A DNA stretch of 59,707 nt, filler included, from Sphacelaria rigidula (taxonomy: Eukaryota): assembly GCA_964200075.2 (NCBI GenBank). It is 8 parts of 8 records of this genome, joined end to end, with 100 filler letters (N's around TTAATTAATTAA, not from the genome) between each part and the next. Parts side by side here need not be neighbours in the genome. Positions count along the whole stretch, not along the records: positions 44,859 to 52,233 come from CAXNAA020015197.1; 7 more parts are not named here. The stretch is one strand, 5' to 3'. How positions within the stretch are numbered: the stretch's first letter is position 1; each line of letters opens with the position of its first letter. A program made the translations under genes and the position numbers. Shown one piece after another: positions 7,378 to 52,439 of the stretch. The notes beneath the pieces were generated by a model that was not told the origin of the DNA, did no database searches, and saw only the letters and a list, made by a program, of their open reading frames with translations.

Positions 7378-7477
7378 NNNNNNNNNNNNNNNNNNNNNNN
7401 NNNNNNNNNNNNNNNNNNNNNTTAATTAATTAANNNNNNNNNNNNNNNNNNNNNNNNNNNNNNNNNNNNNNNNNNNN
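7378..7477. other. Artificial contig linker
   Basis: N44-TTAATTAATTAA-N44 (stops in all six frames). Confidence 0.99.
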
Positions 7478-14600: not shown

Positions 14601-14854
14601 TATCCAAGGTGTGAATGACTTACGGGCTGACCAGTCGTCGGGGTTCCTGCGACTACCCACCAGCAGATCCTGATCCATGGGTAGTTTCCTCGATGAAAGC
14701 AATCCCGGTCGTTGTCGTGAACAAATGTAAGTATTTTTTTTTTACCTGTTCATTTTACTAGAGCTGGAAAGCTGTGACCCCCCCCCCCCCCCCCCCCTCC
14801 TCCCCCACATCCAACCCACCCCCCCCCACCTCCCCCCCACGCCCCCCACCCTCG

Positions 14855-14954
14855 NNNNNNNNNNNNNNNNNNNNNNNNNNNNNNNNNNNNNNNNNNNNTT
14901 AATTAATTAANNNNNNNNNNNNNNNNNNNNNNNNNNNNNNNNNNNNNNNNNNNN
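14855..14954. other. Artificial contig linker
   Basis: N44-TTAATTAATTAA-N44. Confidence 0.99.
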
Positions 14955-16072: not shown

Positions 16073-16442
16073 GACTTCAACGCACGATTTCTCCGTGTCA
16101 AGGATGTAGTTTCAACCGAGCGTATCTAGAGAAAGGAAGAAACATGGTCTATGGCCGATAAAATGTCCTCGGACAGCCCGGACGCTTTTCGGAGTTTACC
16201 ACCCCTCCGACTAGCACCTCATCTTGCGGTTGAAAGTCCTTTTCTGCTAATACTAATGAATTGGTTAAGGTCAGGGTCGCTTTTTGCTCTTGGCCATTTT
16301 AGTTCAAAGCCTTCACGTGTATGAGACCCGTCGTGTTGATACCTGCGGCACTGCTGCCACGCGCGTTAGCCGTGGTTTACCACTAGTTATTATTACTATT
16401 ATTATGATCATCATTATTAATATTATTTTCATTATTATTATT

Positions 16443-16467
16443 GGGTTAGGGTTAGGGTTAGGGTTAG
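16443..16467 (+). repeat. Interstitial telomeric repeat (GGGTTA)4
   Basis: GGGTTAGGGTTAGGGTTAGGGTTAG directly after an (ATT)n tract. Confidence 0.85.
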
Positions 16468-22331: not shown

Positions 22332-22431
22332 NNNNNNNNNNNNNNNNNNNNNNNNNNNNNNNNNNNNNNNNNNNNTTAATTAATTAANNNNNNNNNNNNN
22401 NNNNNNNNNNNNNNNNNNNNNNNNNNNNNNN
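22332..22431. other. Artificial contig linker
   Basis: N44-TTAATTAATTAA-N44. Confidence 0.99.
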
Positions 22432-29807: not shown

Positions 29808-29907
29808 NNNNNNNNNNNNNNNNNNNNNNNNNNNNNNNNNNNNNNNNNNNNTTAATTAATTAANNNNNNNNNNNNNNNNNNNNNNNNNNNNNNNNNNNNN
29901 NNNNNNN
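29808..29907. other. Artificial contig linker
   Basis: N44-TTAATTAATTAA-N44. Confidence 0.99.
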
Positions 29908-35766: not shown

Positions 35767-35907
35767 CACGGTTAGGACAAATGATGATTCGTCAGGAAAT
35801 TACTTGGTTTTAGTATAATAAGTTGACTCGTGATGNNNNNNNNNNAATCAGGCGGAAAAAATCGTGAATTTGGTGATTTTGAGTCGTGATGATTTCTCCT
35901 AACCGTG
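35767..35907. mobile_element. MITE with perfect 8-bp TSD (hAT- or P-superfamily-like)
   Basis: TIR CACGGTTAGGA/TCCTAACCGTG; GAGCATTT at 35759-35766 and 35908-35915; internal N gap. Confidence 0.85.
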
Positions 35908-37283: not shown

Positions 37284-37383
37284 NNNNNNNNNNNNNNNNN
37301 NNNNNNNNNNNNNNNNNNNNNNNNNNNTTAATTAATTAANNNNNNNNNNNNNNNNNNNNNNNNNNNNNNNNNNNNNNNNNNNN
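37284..37383. other. Artificial contig linker
   Basis: N44-TTAATTAATTAA-N44. Confidence 0.99.
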
Positions 37384-37386
37384 ATT

Positions 37387-37890
37387 TACTCTACTCGACG
37401 TTTGAGTAGGTCGAGTACGGCCTCAAATACTCTACTCAAATATTGAGTAAGCACTCCGAGCAACACTTGAGTATAGGGTATCACTTGAGTATGGCCTCAA
37501 TATCTGTACTCAAATTTTGAGTTGGTCGAGTACGGCCTCAAATACTCGACTCAAAATTTTGAGTAGGTCGAGTATGGTGCCAAATACTCTACTCCAATTT
37601 TGAGTAAGCACCCTCGGGAATACTTGAGTATAGAGTATCACTTGGGCATGACCTCAATACTCTCCTCAAAGTTTTGAGTAGGTCGAGTACGGCCTCAAAT
37701 ACTCTGCTCACATTTTGAGTACATCGAGTACGGTCTCGACTCCTCCACCCAATTTTTGAGTAGGTTGAGAATGGTCTCCAATGCTATACTCAGATTTTGA
37801 ATAGATCGATTACGACCTCAAATGCTCTGTTCAAATATTGAGTTAGCACTCTCAGTAATACCGGGGTATAGAGTGCCCCTTGGGTATGGT
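37387..37890 (+). repeat. ~41-bp minisatellite array, block 1
   Basis: Unit TACTCTACTCAAATTTTGAGTAGGTCGAGTACGGCCTCAAA with internal hairpin TACTCAA-TTGAGTA. Confidence 0.9.
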
Positions 37891-38391
37891 GAGTACCCCT
37901 GACGGTCGGCGACTTCGTGACGTCACTTCACAGACCATGTTGAACGCAAAACAGCCAACAAGGAATATGATCGATTATGGCTGTAAAAAAGGGAAAAGAA
38001 GCGTGCAGGTGAACGAACCTACCTGCCCCAGCACCCCATCTCACCAGCCCCCACCCACGGCAGTTCATATTCGATACCTCGCAACGCCTTCGGTATCACT
38101 TTCAGTACAGAGCGCTACTCATCATCATCGAGTAATCGAGTAGACGAGTAGTCGAGTGGGTATTATCGAAATGAGCGACTCTACTGGCCACATATGTGGC
38201 TCCTCCATGGGAGAGTCAGAGGTGGAAACAGCACAAGACGGTTTGACAAGACAGTTTGACCTTGAATCAACACACATCATGGGTGGGCAACTCTAGGAAT
38301 ACCTCGGTATTTCCTCTACCCGAGTTTGGGTATCTTGCGTACAAACTTGAATATTGAAGTTGAAGTTATAGGTTTGCGGTACATCGGATCC

Positions 38392-38830
38392 GGCCTCAGA
38401 TACTCCACTCAAATTTTGAGTAGGTCGAGTACGGCCTCCAATACTCTACTCAGATTTTGAGTAGGCCGAGTACGGCCTCAAATACTTCACTCAATTTTTG
38501 AGTACGTTGAGTACGGCCTCCAATACTCTACTCAAATTTGGAGTAGGTCGAGTACGACCTCAAATACTCTACTCAAATATCGAGTAAGCACTCTCAATAA
38601 AACTTGAGTATAGAGTATCACTTGAGTTTGGCCTCAATACTGTACTCAATTTTTGAGTAAATCGAGTACGACCTCAAATACTCCACTCAAATATTGAGTA
38701 AACACTCTCAGGAATACTTGTATATATAGAGTATCACTTGAGTATGATCTCAATACTCTACTCAAATTTCGAGTACCAAAAGTATAATTTTTCAAAAATA
38801 CTGAGTATTGAGTACACTCTACTCGACCTA
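38392..38830 (+). repeat. ~41-bp minisatellite array, block 2
   Basis: Same unit and orientation as block 1. Confidence 0.9.
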
Positions 38831-44758: not shown

Positions 44759-44858
44759 NNNNNNNNNNNNNNNNNNNNNNNNNNNNNNNNNNNNNNNNNN
44801 NNTTAATTAATTAANNNNNNNNNNNNNNNNNNNNNNNNNNNNNNNNNNNNNNNNNNNN
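44759..44858. other. Artificial contig linker
   Basis: N44-TTAATTAATTAA-N44. Confidence 0.99.
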
Positions 44859-47708: not shown

Positions 47709-49163
47709 TCATCTGCCGGACGCCCCTCCTAGCTCCAACTTCACGTTCGAACCCTCTAACGCCTCTACTGATTCCTCACCAACAAACCCACCAAGAGACC
47801 CACATGCAAATGCCGGCGAACCGTAGCGCCGTCCCACACTCACACCACAACTGCTGCTGCTGGAGTTACGTTCACCACCTGCACTGCTCCAACCCATCAA
47901 AGGGGCAGTGGGCTTGCTACACTCTCCCCTCTCAGCGCCACCGTGGGTAGGAGGAGGAGCTGCCACCTCTACCTTCATTCCTGCTCCTACCCTTGGCACG
48001 GAAGACTCCTCACGATCAGCCCCTGAGGATAGCTGGCCCGAACGAAACAGAGGTGTTATACTACTACGCCTGGCAACAGGGTACACACGACGTCGAGCAT
48101 CAAGAACGTCGCTTCTGCCAGAACTCAAGCATGGTGCGCGCTTGCGTTTTGTTCCTCGCACGCCAGAAACGCTTCCTCCATCACCCTCGTTTGTGCTACG
48201 GGTGGAGATGGCCTCCCCAGTGCTAAGTTCTTCCATGTCGCACACTGTATCTGCTTCATGCGCAGCGGGATGCTGTCGGCACGACATTGCCTCATCAAGG
48301 TTGTCGTTCTTGAGAATATCCAATTTCAAGCGTTCCTCTTTGCTAGAGTTGTAGCTCATCACATTCACCATTCCCGCCCTGGCATGCTTTGAGCAGAACT
48401 CTCTCGTCTTGCTTCCCGCTACACCATACGACGGCCTTTTGGAGCAGCCCTCATCGCCGCACGTCCTGTTCACCACGTTCACCATCCCCGCCCTGGCATG
48501 CTTCAAGCAAAACTCCGCCTTCTTGCTTCCTGCCACACCATACGACGGCGCCTTGGAGCAGCCCTCATCACCGCATCTCTTCGTTACCACATTCACCATT
48601 CCAGCCCTGGCATGCTTCGAGCAGAACTCCGCCTTCTTGCTTCCTGCTACTCCGTACCACGGCCATGTGGAGCAGCCCTCGTCGCTGCATTTCTTGTTCA
48701 CCACATTCACCATTCCCGCCCTGGCATGCTGAGAGCAGAACTCCGCCTTCTTGCTTCCCTTTACACCGTACGACGGGTGCTTGGAGCAGCTCTCGTCGCC
48801 GCAAGTCCTGTTCACCACGTCCACCATTCCCGCCTTGGCATGCTGGGAGCAGAACTCCGCCTTCTTGCTTCCTGCTACACCATACGACGGTCTCTTGGAG
48901 CAGCCCTCGTCGCCGCATTTCTTGTTCACCACGTTCACCATCCCCGCCGTGGCATGCTGGGAGCAGAACTCCGCCTTCTTGCTGCCCGCTACACCATACC
49001 ACGGCTTTTTGAAGCAGCCCTCGTCACCACATTTCTTCGTCACCACATCAACAAGTCCCACCCTGGCATGCTTCGAGCAAAACGCCTTGTAGCCCGGTAC
49101 ACCATACGATGCCCACCTCGAGCAGCCCTCATTGATGCACTCTCTTTTTGCCACGCTGGTCAT
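47709..49163 (-). CDS. EsV-1-7 cysteine-rich repeat domain protein (484 aa)
   Basis: Seven repeats C-x4-C-x3-(P/A)-x-YGV...FC-x2-HA-x2-G(M/L)V(N/D)V (36 + 6x38 aa; nt ~48354-49145), the EsV-1-7 motif expanded in brown algae. The ORF is uninterrupted. A CAG 5 nt upstream of the ATG may be a splice acceptor. Confidence 0.92.
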   Translation of the reverse strand: MTSVAKRECINEGCSRWASYGVPGYKAFCSKHARVGLVDVVTKKCGDEGCFKKPWYGVAGSKKAEFCSQHATAGMVNVVNKKCGDEGCSKRPSYGVAGSKKAEFCSQHAKAGMVDVVNRTCGDESCSKHPSYGVKGSKKAEFCSQHARAGMVNVVNKKCSDEGCSTWPWYGVAGSKKAEFCSKHARAGMVNVVTKRCGDEGCSKAPSYGVAGSKKAEFCLKHARAGMVNVVNRTCGDEGCSKRPSYGVAGSKTREFCSKHARAGMVNVMSYNSSKEERLKLDILKNDNLDEAMSCRQHPAAHEADTVCDMEELSTGEAISTRSTNEGDGGSVSGVRGTKRKRAPCLSSGRSDVLDARRRVYPVARRSSITPLFRSGQLSSGADREESSVPRVGAGMKVEVAAPPPTHGGAERGECSKPTAPLMGWSSAGGERNSSSSSCGVSVGRRYGSPAFACGSLGGFVGEESVEALEGSNVKLELGGASGR

Positions 49164-52100
49164 CAGCTCTGTCGCGTGGTCTTATGAATGAGAAGTAACC
49201 TTTCGCGGTAGCACAAGTGGTAATACATCCGAGGGTTTTGCTGTCAGTTGCAGAAAAAAGCGACGTGGAAAAACAAGATATGGTCGCACATCAACGAGAA
49301 GAACAGAACCTACCGGCACCTACTGAAATTACGCTCCACATAAGCTGGTCGCCACGACTACAACTCCAGTGTCCAAGGTAATTCAAGCGAGTGGGACTCC
49401 CTCACCAATACGGCAGTATGGATCCGAAGTACATATCGCATTGAAAGTACATGAGAGATGAATTAAACAAGACAAGCTTGGATGCATAATACCAAGTCGT
49501 GATTTACCGGACATGATTCATGCAGTATGACGCAATTCAGGCATCACAGAACACCCGCCGATGTTTTGGGAAGTTGCTCTACACTGGCAGGATACCTGAC
49601 AACGTTGGAGGATATCATATACACCCACAAGGTTAGGGGAAATTGTCCTGAACTCGAAGATGCCTGACCATGTTGCGAACTACTTGCCTAATTATATCCT
49701 GTTGTATTTCACCGCCACATAATAAAAATATAAAGGGAATGTCTTTTATTCTCAATAGCTGTACAAGCGACCGTCGAAAGCAAGTTAGATCAACTTTGAT
49801 ACCGAACTTGGCATGTGCACACACGAAAAATACAAAGTGGGTCAAGTTGATTTTTTTCAATTTGTTTCACTGGTTTAGGGCGTTCTATCATAGTAAAGAC
49901 CATATTTCACGAGAACGCCTTAACATATATGAAAAAAAAAATAGAAGGCCTATATTTTATTATTCGGCTCTCTTTTGTGGTTCTCTACACCAAAACTCGT
50001 CGCCATCCGCTAAATGCATCAATCGGGAGTTTCATAGAGATTTTAGTATTGGCGCTATCACTCTCAGGTATAGGAATTACTAGACATGGGGTTTAATCAT
50101 CGAGAAAATATGGGCCCAAACTTCTGAGCAGATGGACACCTTCCCCCTGATTAGACGATGAATACGATATGCGGATCACGGTCCAGCTCGTCTGTGTCGA
50201 TGAGATATTGCTTTTAGAGCTTAAATCCGTTTTTAGGCTGGCCCCGCTCGCATGTTTCTGCCGAGTCACATTACACGCGCACATATGCTCCTATGCATGG
50301 GTATCTTCATCTCTCTTGTTATATCGAGTACCGTGGAAACCAACAGAAATGTATGGTTCTAGTTTCCACTTCAACCACAGGTGAGTTCATATGTCAGGTT
50401 ACCTGATGTTTACCTTAGTCGCTTCTACGTCATACATTTCGGCTCGTAAAGTCTACATGGTGTGCATGGTAGTACATGCTTGTGGTCGCCAGGGTCAGAG
50501 TGTCATGCCAGGAAAGCGCCAGAAGTTGAGCGGAGCGAGAGACGGCTGGGAGACACAACGAGGCTTTTACTGCAGTGCAGCGCATTGCACATATGTTGGA
50601 TGAGTATATCACGACTCTACGCGATTAGTGCAAACATTCTGAATGACGCCGACATGACCATGGTCGTCACCGTGAACATCCTTTCCTTTATAGGCCTTCT
50701 GGAAACCGGCAGCGCCTGACAAGAAGACGGGATTCTACGAATGATGGATGGAGTTTTGGGGGGGGAATGGACAAGGTCAAAAATTGGAACGGAAAGTGCA
50801 GAAACGATTCTTTGGGAATACTGTTTCTTCGCTTGTCGGATAGTCGCTCGAGGTTTCGGCAGGCGTTCAGCGGCGGCGGCCGCGGGGGCAGGGGCGCGAG
50901 CCTATGCCAGGCCGCGAAAGCAACCACCATGGTAGGTGTTAACTGTAAGATATGGGGAGCCTGAGACCACGTCGAGGTAGTCCTTCAAAACTGTCTCTGG
51001 GAGGACATCGTTTGTATTTGCGATCCGATCGGATCGCACAAATGCAAAACGTCCGTTGCATCCGTGTAACAACTGTTTTCAATGGTGAACGCAGATTCTG
51101 CTTCACATTCATTTCTTTTCCATTGTAACTCGCCCATTGGATCTGTGCGGGACGTTGTGGGGCCCACGTAAACTAGTGGAGGTTCTGCAATCACGCATGT
51201 ACATAAAAAGCAACATAAAATACTATTATGTTCGATGTTCGGATGGATTGAGATCCAACGTGCAACTACCAATCCGCTTGCAAAACATGGCGGTCCGTGC
51301 GGATACGTCGAAAAAGTTCTTGCATTTCGGGGTAAAACGTTTGACCTTGTCCATCTCCCAAAGAAAATCCATCCGCCATTTGTAAAACCCCGTGTTCGAG
51401 GGTAAAATATTCGAAACGCACTGATATCTGACCACACGTTGGGGAAACGTGCTCTAGACTATCAGAATATCACCATTGCTGGACGTATCATAAGGCCTAT
51501 TGAGGTGTCATCCAGCCTGTGTCGAACACACATCCTACGGTAAAGATGTACTCCCTTTGATCGCGAATATCAGGAAGGTAAGGACAACACGCAGTCTAAC
51601 TCGGGCCCAGGATAGTATTTTTGCGAACCGTTATTTTTTTGCGGTTTCTGCGTGTTCATTTTGAACAACTAGAACCGGTGCTTTCAAGTTTTCCTCCAAA
51701 AAGGGTTCTCCTACCCCAGCAGAAGTAGCTCGAAATCACCACCCCGTCCCATCGTGTGATGAGGCATGCTTGCTGCTGTGAGTGCAGTCCAAGGGCTAAA
51801 GCGCAACAATTTCAACAATTCTGGGCAAGACGACGTGATTCTTGCTGGCAGCTGAGTATTGGGGTTAGGGTTAGGGCTAGGCAACCAGGGGGTGATAACG
51901 AATCATCCCTACCCCTTCGGATTTTGTTTTCCCTTCCATCATCTGGTCGTATGTATCAAGCTCATCCGACGTCCAACGATGCCTACATGACTTCTTTTGA
52001 ATTACTCCCTCTGATCCCAAATGTAGGGTAGGTTGGGAAACTCAGAATATAAGGTCGGTTTCTACAATATCGGCCAAAGGAGGTCATATGGCCTTTGTCG

Positions 52101-52233: not shown

Positions 52234-52333
52234 NNNNNNNNNNNNNNNNNNNNNNNNNNNNNNNNNNNNNNNNNNNNTTAATTAATTAANNNNNNNNNNN
52301 NNNNNNNNNNNNNNNNNNNNNNNNNNNNNNNNN
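52234..52333. other. Artificial contig linker
   Basis: N44-TTAATTAATTAA-N44. Confidence 0.99.

Positions 52334-52393: not shown

Positions 52394-52439
<46 letters not shown>

What the first reader, a model, noticed from the sequence alone, without database searches (positions are those of the whole stretch)
48354..49145. EsV-1-7 repeat array with variation focused in one loop: a candidate modular recognition code
Seen: six 38-aa repeats (114 nt) plus a 36-aa first repeat are almost invariant outside a few positions. The five residues after the second Cys read SRWAS, FKKPW, SKRPS, SKHPS, STWPW, SKAPS, SKRPS. The third position takes W/K/R/H/W/A/R and the fifth toggles S/W. Minor variation elsewhere includes KK/RT/KR, Q/K and N/D. 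Established: the EsV-1-7 motif is named from Ectocarpus siliculosus virus 1, is expanded in brown algae (e.g. IMMEDIATE UPRIGHT), and has a C-C-C-H spacing suggestive of zinc binding. Inference: a fixed scaffold with chemically diverse residues at one or two positions resembles TALE RVDs, PPR codes or zinc-finger recognition positions. The array may therefore be a repeat-programmable binder of nucleic acid or protein.
Basis: partly seen in the sequence, partly recalled or inferred. Interest (0 to 1): 0.75.

Follow-up and report, generated by a model that had tools for sequence, protein, structure and literature searches.

The report
Zinc-repeat protein with selected variable loop
A brown-alga gene encodes seven copies of a small zinc-binding repeat of unknown function, and the residues that differ between copies fall at positions that evolve under diversifying selection in related repeat arrays, which marks them as likely target-recognition positions.

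Summary
A minus-strand ORF with no stop codon (47709-49163, 484 aa) encodes seven EsV-1-7 repeats (Pfam PF19114, E 1.5e-111). The closest relatives are unnamed Sphacelaria rigidula proteins, so the gene is an ordinary member of a known, functionally uncharacterised brown-alga and giant-virus family.

Column 9 (third residue after Cys2) is the most variable column across 1,071 other repeats. It almost never holds Asp or Glu and is rich in Arg, Gln and His. It diverges 2.9x the mean between young repeats but 1.3x between orthologue-like proteins. In 33 giant-virus arrays with DNA, columns 11, 9 and 36 alone show pN/pS of 2.3-2.8. Three metagenome arrays show the same for columns 9 and 11.

Several points weigh against it. 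In brown algae the linker (columns 35-36) is as variable as column 9, and column 11 is not a hot spot. Tests on this array alone are not significant. No ligand, no "one face" geometry and no code are shown. The scan had already noted EsV-1-7 arrays fused to nuclease-like domains in giant viruses; here that domain identity stayed a lead. Most likely this is a nuclear, basic zinc-finger array with repeat-specific contact residues, probably for nucleic acid.

The parts
47709..49163 (-). Whole ORF with no internal stop: 484 aa plus stop at 47709-47711 (protein P0001)
   Evidence: It is the longest ORF of the window: 490 aa stop to stop, against 264 aa or less for the other 22 ORFs of 150 aa or more, the longer of which overlap this repeat.
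49140..49163 (-). 8-residue N-terminus before the first repeat; there is no N-terminal domain
49032..49139 (-). Repeat R1 (36 aa, two residues shorter in the 15-21 loop); loop SRWAS
48918..49031 (-). Repeat R2 (38 aa); loop FKKPW
48804..48917 (-). Repeat R3 (38 aa); loop SKRPS
48690..48803 (-). Repeat R4 (38 aa); loop SKHPS
48576..48689 (-). Repeat R5 (38 aa); loop STWPW
48462..48575 (-). Repeat R6 (38 aa); loop SKAPS
48348..48461 (-). Repeat R7 (38 aa); loop SKRPS; its linker has diverged (MSYN)
47712..48347 (-). C-terminal tail, aa 273-484, net charge 0, no Pfam family; alignable among the 13 Sphacelaria-labelled paralogues aligned
48138..48149 (-). KRKR (aa 339-342), a basic motif resembling a nuclear localisation signal; mostly kept in the paralogues' tails. 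Reading it as an NLS rests on recalled knowledge.
47967..47978 (-). MKVE (aa 396-399), a conserved hydrophobic-K-x-E motif. Reading it as a SUMO-type consensus rests on recalled knowledge and was not tested.
47733..47744 (-). VKLE (aa 474-477), a second conserved hydrophobic-K-x-E motif near the C-terminus

Best explanation
This is an ORF with no internal stop that encodes an ordinary member of the brown-algal EsV-1-7 family. The organism is Sphacelaria rigidula or a close relative, judged by the labels of the best hits.

Shown by sequence or model:
- Each 36-38-aa repeat carries the Cys3His set C1, C6, C23, H26.
- In a confident model each repeat forms a small module: a knuckle, a strand at columns 12-14, a helical turn at C23-x2-H26 and a strand at columns 31-33.
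- The seven modules form a strongly basic array (net charge +22).
- A conserved tail carries a KRKR motif.

Inferred mechanism:
- The protein acts in the nucleus as a multi-finger binder of a polyanionic target, most likely DNA and less likely RNA.
- The constant scaffold gives fold and general affinity.
- The residue at column 9 gives each repeat its own contact. Here it reads W, K, R, H, W, A, R. Column 11 (S or W here) and linker columns 35-36 contribute too.
- The order of repeats would then set the target preference.

Not shown: zinc binding, nuclear location, any ligand, or any repeat-to-target rule.
For: Family membership:
- Pfam PF19114 matches at E 1.5e-111 in 7 stretches.
- The best hits are unnamed Sphacelaria rigidula proteins, up to 69% identical, with the same tail.

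Fold and charge:
- AlphaFold2 on 119 rows gives mean pLDDT 89.0 and pTM 0.60.
- The array has pI 9.3 and net charge +22, with every repeat at +2 to +4.

Selection in this array:
- The scaffold is under purifying selection: pN 0.137 against pS 0.373.

Column 9 across the family:
- Entropy is 3.48 bits over 726 other repeats and 1.85 bits within arrays, rank 1 of 38 both times.
- Over 1,056 residues from other proteins, R is 25%, Q 21% and H 9%. D+E is 1.2% against 15.5% in 12 other variable columns.
- D+E is 0 of 142 in Sphacelaria-labelled repeats and 1 of 171 in other brown-alga-labelled repeats.
- Young within-array repeat pairs (80% identity or more; 81 pairs in 31 proteins) mismatch at column 9 in 57%, against a mean of 14%.
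- At matched divergence (0.224 against 0.213), the relative rate of column 9 is 2.88 between repeats and 1.32 between 17 independent orthologue-like pairs. The bootstrap difference is 1.04-2.13. Column 11 gives 1.97 against 1.03, and column 36 gives 2.57 against 1.65.
- Between orthologue-like pairs, column 9 is identical in 69 of 96 repeat pairs and is not the fastest column; column 29 is identical in only 53%.

Codon level, other lineages:
- 33 of 67 non-redundant giant-virus loci have young repeat pairs (381 pairs, pS 0.171).
- There pN/pS is 2.80 for column 11, 2.48 for column 9 and 2.28 for column 36, with bootstrap intervals all above 1.8. The next column reaches 1.41.
- pN at columns 9+11 exceeds the locus's own pS in 30 of 33 loci.
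- Columns 9 and 11 also exceed each locus's own pS in metagenome loci L181, L182 and L183.

Hints at DNA as the ligand:
- In giant viruses the arrays precede a conserved 190-aa domain. Its motifs line up with DUF559 (hhalign P 0.0022, Prob 13%). Its nearest named ESM-Atlas clusters are PvuRts1I-like and DUF559 endonucleases at 0.84-0.88, which count as leads only.
- Arrays are exchanged on a near-constant copy of this domain: the tail is 98% identical and the array 45%.
- A paper passage reports an Ectocarpus Tc1/Mariner transposase with an N-terminal EsV-1-7 domain (PMC12477816, passage read).
- Another passage says these proteins have been hypothesised to be zinc-finger transcription factors (PMC12629598, passage read).
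Against: - Nothing here shows binding to anything.
- On this array alone the signal is weak. Codon 9 gives pN/pS 1.74 from a single codon. It has 7 minimal changes in 3 sites against 5 in 7 four-fold sites, Poisson P 0.0065, or 0.25 after correction for 38 codons.
- Between orthologue-like pairs, column 9 is no more conserved than other variable columns (0.72 against 0.71, bootstrap P 0.41). Its excess between repeats could partly reflect a large tolerated alphabet and old repeats, not selection for difference.
- In brown-alga-labelled proteins the linker is as variable or more so. In Sphacelaria the mismatch is 0.68 at column 36 and 0.56 at column 9. In other brown algae columns 36, 35, 7 and 33 all exceed column 9. 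Column 11 is Ser in 113 of 141.
- The pN/pS evidence comes from giant-virus and metagenome arrays, not from brown algae. It uses uncorrected p-distances and pairs that are not independent within a locus.
- Family-wide, 11 columns exceed 3 bits of entropy, so this is not a TALE-like invariant scaffold.
- Fold searches gave only weak matches to protein-binding zinc modules (LIM, RING, B-box, ZZ) at Z 2.7 or less.
- The nuclease identity of the viral domain is unproven. Pfam, NCBIfam, PHROGs and PDB sequence searches found nothing, and hhalign against Vsr gave Prob 2.9%.
Confidence: 0.45

Rival explanations
1. The array is a protein-binding scaffold. The EsV-1-7 modules would act like LIM, RING, B-box or ZZ zinc modules, and the variable loop and linker residues would tune which protein partners dock. 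No nucleic acid would be read.
For: The only structural neighbours, all weak, are protein-binding zinc modules:
- Foldseek's best match is a LIM domain at E 1.5.
- VIA-align's best matches are the MDM2 and MEX-3C RING domains at Z 2.7, then B-box and ZZ at Z 2.1-2.3.

Trp and other hydrophobic residues occur at columns 9 and 11 in this array. Diversifying selection at a few surface positions also fits protein recognition.
Against: - The matches are at noise level: 0 of 53 Foldseek rows at E 0.001 or better, and 0 of 48,161 chains at Z 5 or more.
- Column 9 almost excludes acidic residues and favours Arg, Gln and His.
- The array carries net charge +22.
- EsV-1-7 units are reported on a transposase. 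They also precede a probable endonuclease domain in 85 of 92 giant-virus loci examined. That is the position a DNA-binding module takes in I-Bth0305I (PMC3239194, passages read).
Confidence: 0.22
2. The variation is a tolerant surface loop without a recognition role. Column 9 and the linker simply accept many residues. The array acts as a generic basic zinc scaffold, and the differences between repeats are near-neutral.
For: - In this array codon 9 evolves at about the neutral rate or above, without significance.
- Many other columns vary family-wide.
- Column 9 is not more conserved between orthologue-like pairs than other variable columns.
- The closest in-species paralogues differ at column 9 in 10 of 11 aligned repeats.
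Against: - A neutral site should be the fastest column between orthologues. Column 9 is not: mismatch is 0.28 against 0.47, 0.42 and 0.39 for columns 29, 14 and 7.
- Its composition is far from neutral, with D+E at 1.2% against 15.5%.
- In young viral and metagenome arrays, pN at columns 9 and 11 is 2.5-5 times pS. The pooled bootstrap intervals for the viral loci exclude 1.
Confidence: 0.15
3. The target is RNA or single-stranded nucleic acid and not duplex DNA. The array would bind transcripts, as several Cys3His finger families do, with aromatic loop residues stacking on bases.
For: - The ligand set is Cys3His.
- Trp is 12.5-fold enriched at column 9 relative to other variable columns, and Tyr 2.7-fold.
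- This array has Trp at column 9 in R1 and R5 and at column 11 in R2 and R5.
- Aromatic residues are conserved at columns 12 and 22.
Against: - The spacing C-x4-C-x16-C-x2-H differs from the Tis11-type CCCH finger (spacing recalled, not tested).
- No RNA-binding family matched in Pfam.
- The fusions seen or reported are with DNA-acting enzymes.
Confidence: 0.13
4. The ORF is a decaying or transposon-borne copy without a function of its own.
For: - The family is very large and partly associated with transposons and viral inserts.
- The gene sits alone: 18 neighbouring ORFs of 150 aa or more gave 0 Pfam families.
Against: - The 484-aa frame is intact.
- All 28 zinc ligands are kept.
- The scaffold has pN/pS 0.37.
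- The tail is alignable among the 13 paralogues aligned.
- The protein has no transposase or viral domain.
Confidence: 0.04

Closest known systems
EsV-1-7 cysteine-rich repeat family (Pfam PF19114 / IPR043822), including Ectocarpus IMMEDIATE UPRIGHT (IMM)
   Same: - Same repeat, same Cys3His spacing and the same tandem array of 5-8 units.
- Same host group, the brown algae.
- The family is described as a possible novel zinc finger of unknown biochemical function (passages read: 10.1101/2024.02.19.579948; PMC7457493).
   Different: - It is not an IMM orthologue. IMM is defined by a unique N-terminal domain, and this protein has only 8 residues before the array.
- It belongs to a Sphacelaria-labelled subfamily with its own conserved tail.
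- The hot spots at columns 9, 11 and 35-36 were not found described in the papers searched. The founding paper, Macaisne et al. 2017, is not held, so what it says about variable positions could not be checked.
Giant-virus proteins with an EsV-1-7 array followed by a conserved 190-aa DUF559/Vsr-like domain (IMG/VR loci L001-L092)
   Same: - Same repeat family.
- Arrays behave as exchangeable modules.
   Different: - The viral proteins carry a C-terminal enzyme-like domain that the alga protein lacks.
- Their repeats have N at column 13 and K at column 27, where the alga has G and A.
- The endonuclease identity of the domain is a lead only. It had been noted earlier by this scan.
C2H2 zinc-finger arrays of animals (for example KRAB zinc-finger proteins)
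   Same: - Tandem small zinc modules with a constant scaffold.
- A few positions per module differ between fingers and evolve under positive selection after duplication (recalled knowledge).
- Large lineage-specific gene families.
   Different: - The ligand set and spacing differ (Cys3His, C-x4-C-x16-C-x2-H), and there is no Pfam C2H2 match.
- The module is mostly loops and short strands with only a helical turn.
- The linker is variable here; in C2H2 arrays it is conserved.
- DNA binding has not been shown.
TALE repeats (two repeat-variable residues in a 34-aa repeat) and PPR repeats
   Same: - Near-identical repeats in which two or three positions carry most of the difference.
- The idea of one contact per repeat.
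   Different: - Those repeats are helical, bind no metal and have an experimentally proven code.
- EsV-1-7 scaffolds vary much more family-wide: 11 columns exceed 3 bits of entropy.
- No ligand is known.
LIM, RING, B-box and ZZ zinc modules
   Same: - Small zinc modules of about 35-60 residues.
- They are the only structural neighbours found.
   Different: - The matches are at noise level (Z 2.7 or less, E 1.5 or more).
- Those domains bind two zinc ions in a cross-brace or in paired fingers. Each EsV-1-7 unit has four ligands, enough for one ion.

Membership tests
EsV-1-7 cysteine-rich repeat family (PF19114) | Match to the Pfam model above its gathering score | tested here: met
   364.3 bits against a cut-off of 25, E 1.5e-111, 7 stretches
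EsV-1-7 cysteine-rich repeat family (PF19114) | Cys-x4-Cys-x16-Cys-x2-His ligand pattern in every repeat | tested here: met
   All 7 repeats have it (x14 in R1). Family-wide, C1 is 635 of 635, C6 703, C23 710 and H26 711 of about 720 residues per column.
EsV-1-7 cysteine-rich repeat family (PF19114) | Relatives in brown algae and giant viruses | tested here: met
   240 proteins at E 0.001 or better among 8,000 candidates. The best are labelled Sphacelaria, Ectocarpus, Pylaiella and Scytosiphon.
EsV-1-7 cysteine-rich repeat family (PF19114) | Zinc binding by the Cys3His set | not testable with these tools
   Inferred only. The family has no solved structure by sequence search (0 PDB matches at E 10 or better).
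IMMEDIATE UPRIGHT (IMM) orthologues | IMM-specific N-terminal domain before the repeats (criterion used in 10.1101/2024.02.19.579948, passage read) | tested here: not met
   Only 8 residues precede the first repeat. No IMM sequence was compared directly.
Repeat-programmable binders (TALE-, PPR- or C2H2-like logic) | Constant scaffold with a few positions that carry the differences between repeats and are under selection | tested here: met
   Column 9 ranks first. pN/pS is 2.3-2.8 at columns 9, 11 and 36 in viral arrays. In brown algae the linker is equally variable and column 11 is not.
Repeat-programmable binders (TALE-, PPR- or C2H2-like logic) | Variable residues lie on one face of the array | not testable with these tools
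   The model is confident, but no coordinates are given out. Covariation between linker and loop was inconclusive.
Repeat-programmable binders (TALE-, PPR- or C2H2-like logic) | Demonstrated sequence-specific ligand, with one repeat reading one unit | not testable with these tools
   No binding data exist in the papers searched.
C2H2 zinc finger | Cys2His2 ligand set and a match to the family model | tested here: not met
   The ligand set is Cys3His with other spacing. There is no C2H2 hit in Pfam at E 1 or better.
Treble-clef zinc fingers (fold class) | N-terminal zinc knuckle, a beta-hairpin, and the last two ligands at the start of a helix | tested here: inconclusive
   The model's secondary structure fits: knuckle at C1-C6, strand at columns 12-14, bridge at column 22, helical turn at columns 24-26. 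Structural matches are only Z 2.0-2.7. The definition of the fold class is recalled.
Vsr / DUF559 (PD-(D/E)xK-type) endonuclease, for the C-terminal domain of the giant-virus relatives only | Homology to the family and its catalytic Asp, Glu-x-Asp and His motifs | tested here: inconclusive
   - hhalign against 2 DUF559 sequences gives Prob 13% and P 0.0022, with the motifs aligned.
- hhalign against 80 Vsr sequences gives Prob 2.9%.
- Atlas feature scores are 0.84-0.88, below the 0.9 bar.
- Pfam, NCBIfam, PHROGs and PDB sequence searches were empty.

The most novel reading that the evidence does not exclude
EsV-1-7 arrays are a so far unrecognised class of modular, repeat-programmable nucleic-acid-binding domain. 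Each zinc module would read its part of the target mainly through the third and fifth residues after the second Cys (columns 9 and 11) and a linker residue (column 36). These positions are diversified after each repeat duplication and then kept. Brown algae would have expanded such arrays as nuclear regulators, and this gene would be one with the read-out W-K-R-H-W-A-R. Giant viruses would use the same arrays to aim a DUF559/Vsr-like endonuclease.
Probability: 0.3. Interest if true: 0.85.

Novelty: new member of a known kind. Interest (0 to 1): 0.6.

Why it matters
EsV-1-7 proteins form one of the largest gene-family expansions in brown algae. One preprint counts 2,018 members and another reports the largest orthogroup. 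The family includes the developmental regulator IMM, yet its biochemical function is unknown.

If columns 9, 11 and 35-36 are the contact positions, the question "what do these repeats bind?" becomes directly testable. One could compare native and loop-swapped arrays in DNA and RNA binding assays. The residues at these columns could also be used to sort the hundreds of paralogues into predicted specificity classes.

If a repeat-to-target rule exists, it would add a new designable binding scaffold beside C2H2 fingers, TALEs and PPRs. It would also explain why giant viruses attach these arrays to a nuclease-like domain.

As a locus, the gene itself is an ordinary family member.

Tried and rejected
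I used 177 database homologues instead.

Spurious Pfam hits: Phe_ZIP (PF08916) and E3_UbLigase_RBR had no stretch that passed on its own and are by-products of the repeat. The precomputed co-hits Zf_WRKY19, TnpV, YyzF and DUF402 lie on the repeats themselves and are not extra domains.

Fused forms: the "longer" search gave only 5 proteins. Extra families appeared only in two eukprot-sourced gene models, EF-hand families in one and a reverse transcriptase in the other.

Structure neighbours:
- PDB by sequence gave 0 hits.
- Foldseek gave 0 of 53 rows at E 0.001 or better.
- VIA-align wide gave 12 of 48,161 chains at Z 2 or more, best 2.7.

Expression: no RNA holder is listed. Contigs of four coded runs were laid. 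In the three small runs of guessed RNA type, contig pieces lie between 47654 and 49202. The large run's contig continues to 49786. Two of the small runs look like one data set, loose ends occur inside the ORF, and the run type is a guess. I draw no conclusion on transcription.

Viral C-terminal domain: nothing was found in Pfam, NCBIfam, PHROGs, PDB sequences (single sequence and profile) or tblastn against phages. hhalign against an enterobacterial Vsr profile gave Prob 2.9% over 17 columns. Structure prediction of this domain was not possible.

Covariation: mutual information between linker columns of repeat i and loop columns of repeat i+1 was compared with the same repeat. Both were weak (z 1-5), so there is no conclusion on spatial contact.

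Other steps that gave nothing:
- The search for related loci with the 119-row alignment failed for lack of a conserved stretch.
- The first 9-pair orthologue test counted one trio three times. It was replaced by the 17-pair test.
- Macaisne et al. 2017 is not held.
- The supplementary tables of the two bioRxiv preprints (for example Table S17 with all EsV-1-7 genes) are closed. They may list this gene.
- Earlier scan notes by place and by sequence returned nothing for this genome.
Full report
**1. What is there**

The finding lies on the minus strand. ORF 47709..49163 encodes 484 aa. It is the longest ORF of the window, at 490 aa stop to stop. The other 22 ORFs of 150 aa or more reach at most 264 aa, and the longer ones overlap this repeat.

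Tandem Repeats Finder reports a 114-nt period, 6.4 copies, 84% matches and score 950 at 48356-49083. Pfam finds seven EsV_1_7_cys units at E 1.5e-111. The repeats start at aa 9, 45, 83, 121, 159, 197 and 235. R1 has 36 residues and the others have 38.

A six-frame pattern scan finds no other unit in the window.

**2. How the repeats differ**

I number the repeat from the first Cys. The ligands are C1, C6, C23 and H26.

- Sixteen of 38 columns are invariant in all seven repeats.
- Column 9 has the highest entropy: 2.24 bits, with six different codons in seven repeats.
- Linker columns 38, 36 and 37 come next at 1.84, 1.38 and 1.38 bits. Column 11 has 0.86 bits.

The variation therefore sits in two places, the loop and the linker, and not in one.

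The repeats are not fresh copies. Nucleotide identity between R2-R7 is 81-88%. Pooled pS is 0.373 and pN outside codon 9 is 0.137, a ratio of 0.37. The constant scaffold is kept by purifying selection.

Codon 9 has pN 0.648, or 1.74 times pS. It needs at least 7 nucleotide changes in 3 sites, against 5 in 7 four-fold sites. That gives Poisson P 0.0065, but 0.25 after allowing for the choice among 38 codons. On this array alone, one cannot tell neutral evolution from positive selection at codon 9.

**3. Which organism and family**

No genome is held for the window. The best relatives of P0001 are unnamed proteins labelled Sphacelaria rigidula, up to 69% identical. Proteins labelled Ectocarpus, Pylaiella and Scytosiphon follow (240 proteins at E 0.001 or better among 8,000 candidates, 120 listed).

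Thirteen Sphacelaria-labelled proteins were aligned over the tail. They share a basic KRKR-type motif, mostly kept, and two hydrophobic-K-x-E motifs. The array has pI 9.3 and net charge +22, and the tail is neutral. Only eight residues precede the array, so the protein lacks the N-terminal domain by which IMM orthologues are defined (passage).

The 18 other long ORFs of the window gave no Pfam family. Nothing suggests a viral insert around the gene.

**4. What is in print**

I read passages only, not whole papers.

[quoted passage not shown] - It forms the largest orthogroup and is regarded as virus-derived. Ectocarpus members carry no other Pfam domain (10.64898/2026.04.27.720984).
[quoted passage not shown] Searches for EsV-1-7, PF19114, IPR043822 and combinations with zinc finger or DNA-binding found no study of structure, ligand or variable positions. 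The founding paper, Macaisne et al. 2017, is not held. The preprints' supplements are closed.

**5. Fold**

AlphaFold2 was run on an alignment of the array with 118 of the 119 other listed hits. P0021 was left out because its N-terminal part reads like another frame. The model has mean pLDDT 89.0 and pTM 0.60.

Each repeat shows a strand at columns 12-14, a bridge at column 22, a helical turn at columns 24-26 and a strand at columns 31-33. This pattern fits a treble-clef-like one-zinc module (definition recalled).

No solved relative was found:
- 0 PDB sequence matches.
- 0 of 53 Foldseek rows at E 0.001 or better.
- Best VIA-align Z of 2.7 to RING domains, then B-box and ZZ.

**6. Family-wide test at the protein level**

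Two searches gave 178 proteins with 1,078 repeats. All statistics below exclude P0001.

- Column 9 has the highest entropy over 726 repeats (3.48 bits) and within arrays (1.85 bits, next 1.50). Ten other columns also exceed 3 bits.
- At column 9, R is 25%, Q 21% and H 9%. D+E is 1.2% against 15.5% in twelve other variable columns. W is 12.5-fold enriched.
- Among within-array repeat pairs of 80% identity or more (81 pairs, 31 proteins), mismatch is 0.57 at column 9, 0.55 at column 36, 0.39 at column 35, 0.31 at column 11 and 0.28 at column 7. The mean is 0.14.
- Seventeen independent orthologue-like pairs were used (65-91% identity, one pair per cluster, one isoform pair dropped). Column 9 is identical in 69 of 96 repeat pairs (0.72). 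That equals the mean of the other variable columns (0.71), and column 9 is not the fastest column. Within arrays its identity is 0.13, the lowest.
- At matched mean divergence (0.224 against 0.213), the relative rate of column 9 is 2.88 between repeats and 1.32 between orthologue-like proteins. This ratio of 2.18 is the largest of all columns, and the bootstrap difference is 1.04-2.13. Column 11 follows with 1.97 against 1.03, and column 36 with 2.57 against 1.65.

A caveat applies. A site with a large tolerated alphabet in old repeats can produce part of this contrast without selection for difference.

Subsets labelled as brown algae give a less tidy picture.
- Sphacelaria (28 proteins, 72 young pairs): mismatch 0.68 at column 36, 0.56 at column 9, 0.44 at column 35.
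- Other brown algae (32 proteins, 24 young pairs in 7 proteins): columns 36, 35, 7 and 33 exceed column 9 (0.50).
- Column 11 is Ser in 113 of 141 Sphacelaria repeats, and W occurs 3 times. The S/W toggle of this array is therefore unusual.
- Against its four closest paralogues, this protein differs at column 9 in 10 of 11 aligned repeats.

**7. Codon-level test in other lineages**

Earlier notes of this scan pointed to giant-virus proteins that join EsV-1-7 arrays to a nuclease-like domain. I fetched such loci from IMG/VR: 12 with P0108 and 80 with the L008 ORF.

In L008, six near-identical repeats have pS 0.137 and pN 0.065 outside columns 9 and 11, and pN 0.521 at those two columns.

- Of the 92 loci, 85 had an ORF with two or more units.
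- Of those, 67 remained after removing near-duplicates.
- Of those, 33 had repeat pairs with pS of 0.30 or less (381 pairs, pS 0.171, pN 0.124).

Per column, pN/pS was 2.80 at column 11 (bootstrap by locus 2.16-3.47), 2.48 at column 9 (2.12-2.87) and 2.28 at column 36 (1.87-2.75). The next column reached 1.41, and column 7 gave 0.32.

With pS of 0.15 or less the three values rise to 3.6-4.7. In 30 of 33 loci, pN at columns 9+11 exceeds the locus's own pS. The synonymous distance at column 11 is not raised.

Eleven metagenome loci were found with this window's array. Seven had an ORF with two or more repeat units, and four of those had young repeat pairs. In L181, L182 and L183, columns 9 and 11 exceed the locus's own pS; L181, for example, has pS 0.127, column 9 at 0.68 and column 11 at 0.63. 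The fourth, L177, has a single young pair.

These are p-distance ratios, pairs within a locus are not independent, and the loci are viral or unassigned, not brown-algal.

**8. What the arrays may bind**

The viral C-terminal domain of about 190 aa is highly conserved, with invariant D76, E89, D91, E92, H95, D97 and others. Arrays are exchanged on it. L007 and L006 are 98% identical in the tail but 45% in the array, with different repeat numbers. L010 has 3 repeats where L009 has 7.

Sequence libraries do not name the domain.
- hhalign against Vsr gives no support (Prob 2.9%).
- hhalign against two DUF559 proteins gives Prob 13% and P 0.0022. The Asp, the I-I-E-x-D-x-x-Q-H stretch and the R-F motif are aligned.
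- ESM-Atlas features give PvuRts1I-like and DUF559 clusters at 0.84-0.88, below the 0.9 bar.

I take "endonuclease of the Vsr/DUF559 kind" as likely but unproven.

In the related homing enzyme I-Bth0305I, the N-terminal region is the DNA-binding part (PMC3239194, passages). Several facts point the same way: this placement, the reported transposase fusion, the charge of the array and the make-up of column 9. Together they make nucleic acid, probably DNA, the most likely ligand. That is inference, not demonstration.

**9. Verdict**

The gene is a new member of a known kind, an EsV-1-7 protein of a Sphacelaria-type subfamily.

There is a real, selected, repeat-specific position at column 9. Column 11 joins it in viral arrays, and the linker joins it in both. 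A recognition code, a single variable face and the ligand remain open.

The scan has seen EsV-1-7 arrays before on giant-virus DNA, but not this locus.

Noticed in passing
window 48389-49187 (+ strand): Several long plus-strand ORFs (207, 229, 107 and 113 aa) overlap the array antisense. They repeat with the same 114-nt period and are by-products of the repeat, not evidence of genes.
   Followed up: partly
window 48316-49047: Summed contig depth on the repeat part is 7,000-34,600 in four coded runs, against about 20-90 for the single contigs that fit uniquely. The same organism's data therefore hold very many near-identical EsV-1-7 repeats.
   Followed up: no
window 16387-16467: An interstitial telomere-like (GGGTTA)x4.2 sits directly after a TTA microsatellite.
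   Followed up: no
window 37387-38775: Two blocks of a 41-bp tandem repeat (8.9 and 4.8 copies) have higher-order periods of 157 and 114 bp. This may be a satellite or the internal repeat of a transposon.
   Followed up: no
window 7378-7477, 14855-14954, 22332-22431, 29808-29907, 37284-37383, 44759-44858, 52234-52333: Pairs of 44-N runs 12 bases apart recur about every 7.45 kb. Two 10-N runs lie at 35836 and 58354. The window holds 636 N in all. This looks like masking or scaffolding and not biology.
   Followed up: no
window 52395-52436 and 14778-14851: A 42-nt run of G and a 74-nt C-rich tract.
   Followed up: no
L006 and L007; L009 and L010 (IMG/VR giant-virus loci): Proteins with a 98% identical C-terminal domain carry quite different arrays (45% identity, different repeat number and knuckle length). 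A 92% identical pair has 7 against 3 repeats. Arrays are swapped or trimmed as modules.
   Followed up: partly
L181:1501-2430 (metagenome locus): A young array of six near-identical repeats differs almost only at columns 9, 11 and 36. It is followed by a C-terminal region that I did not compare with the L001-type domain.
   Followed up: partly
window 47712-48347 (tail of P0001) and the Sphacelaria-labelled paralogues: The non-repeat tail is alignable in all 13 paralogues aligned and matches no Pfam family. It holds a basic KRKR-type motif that is mostly kept and two hydrophobic-K-x-E motifs.
   Followed up: partly
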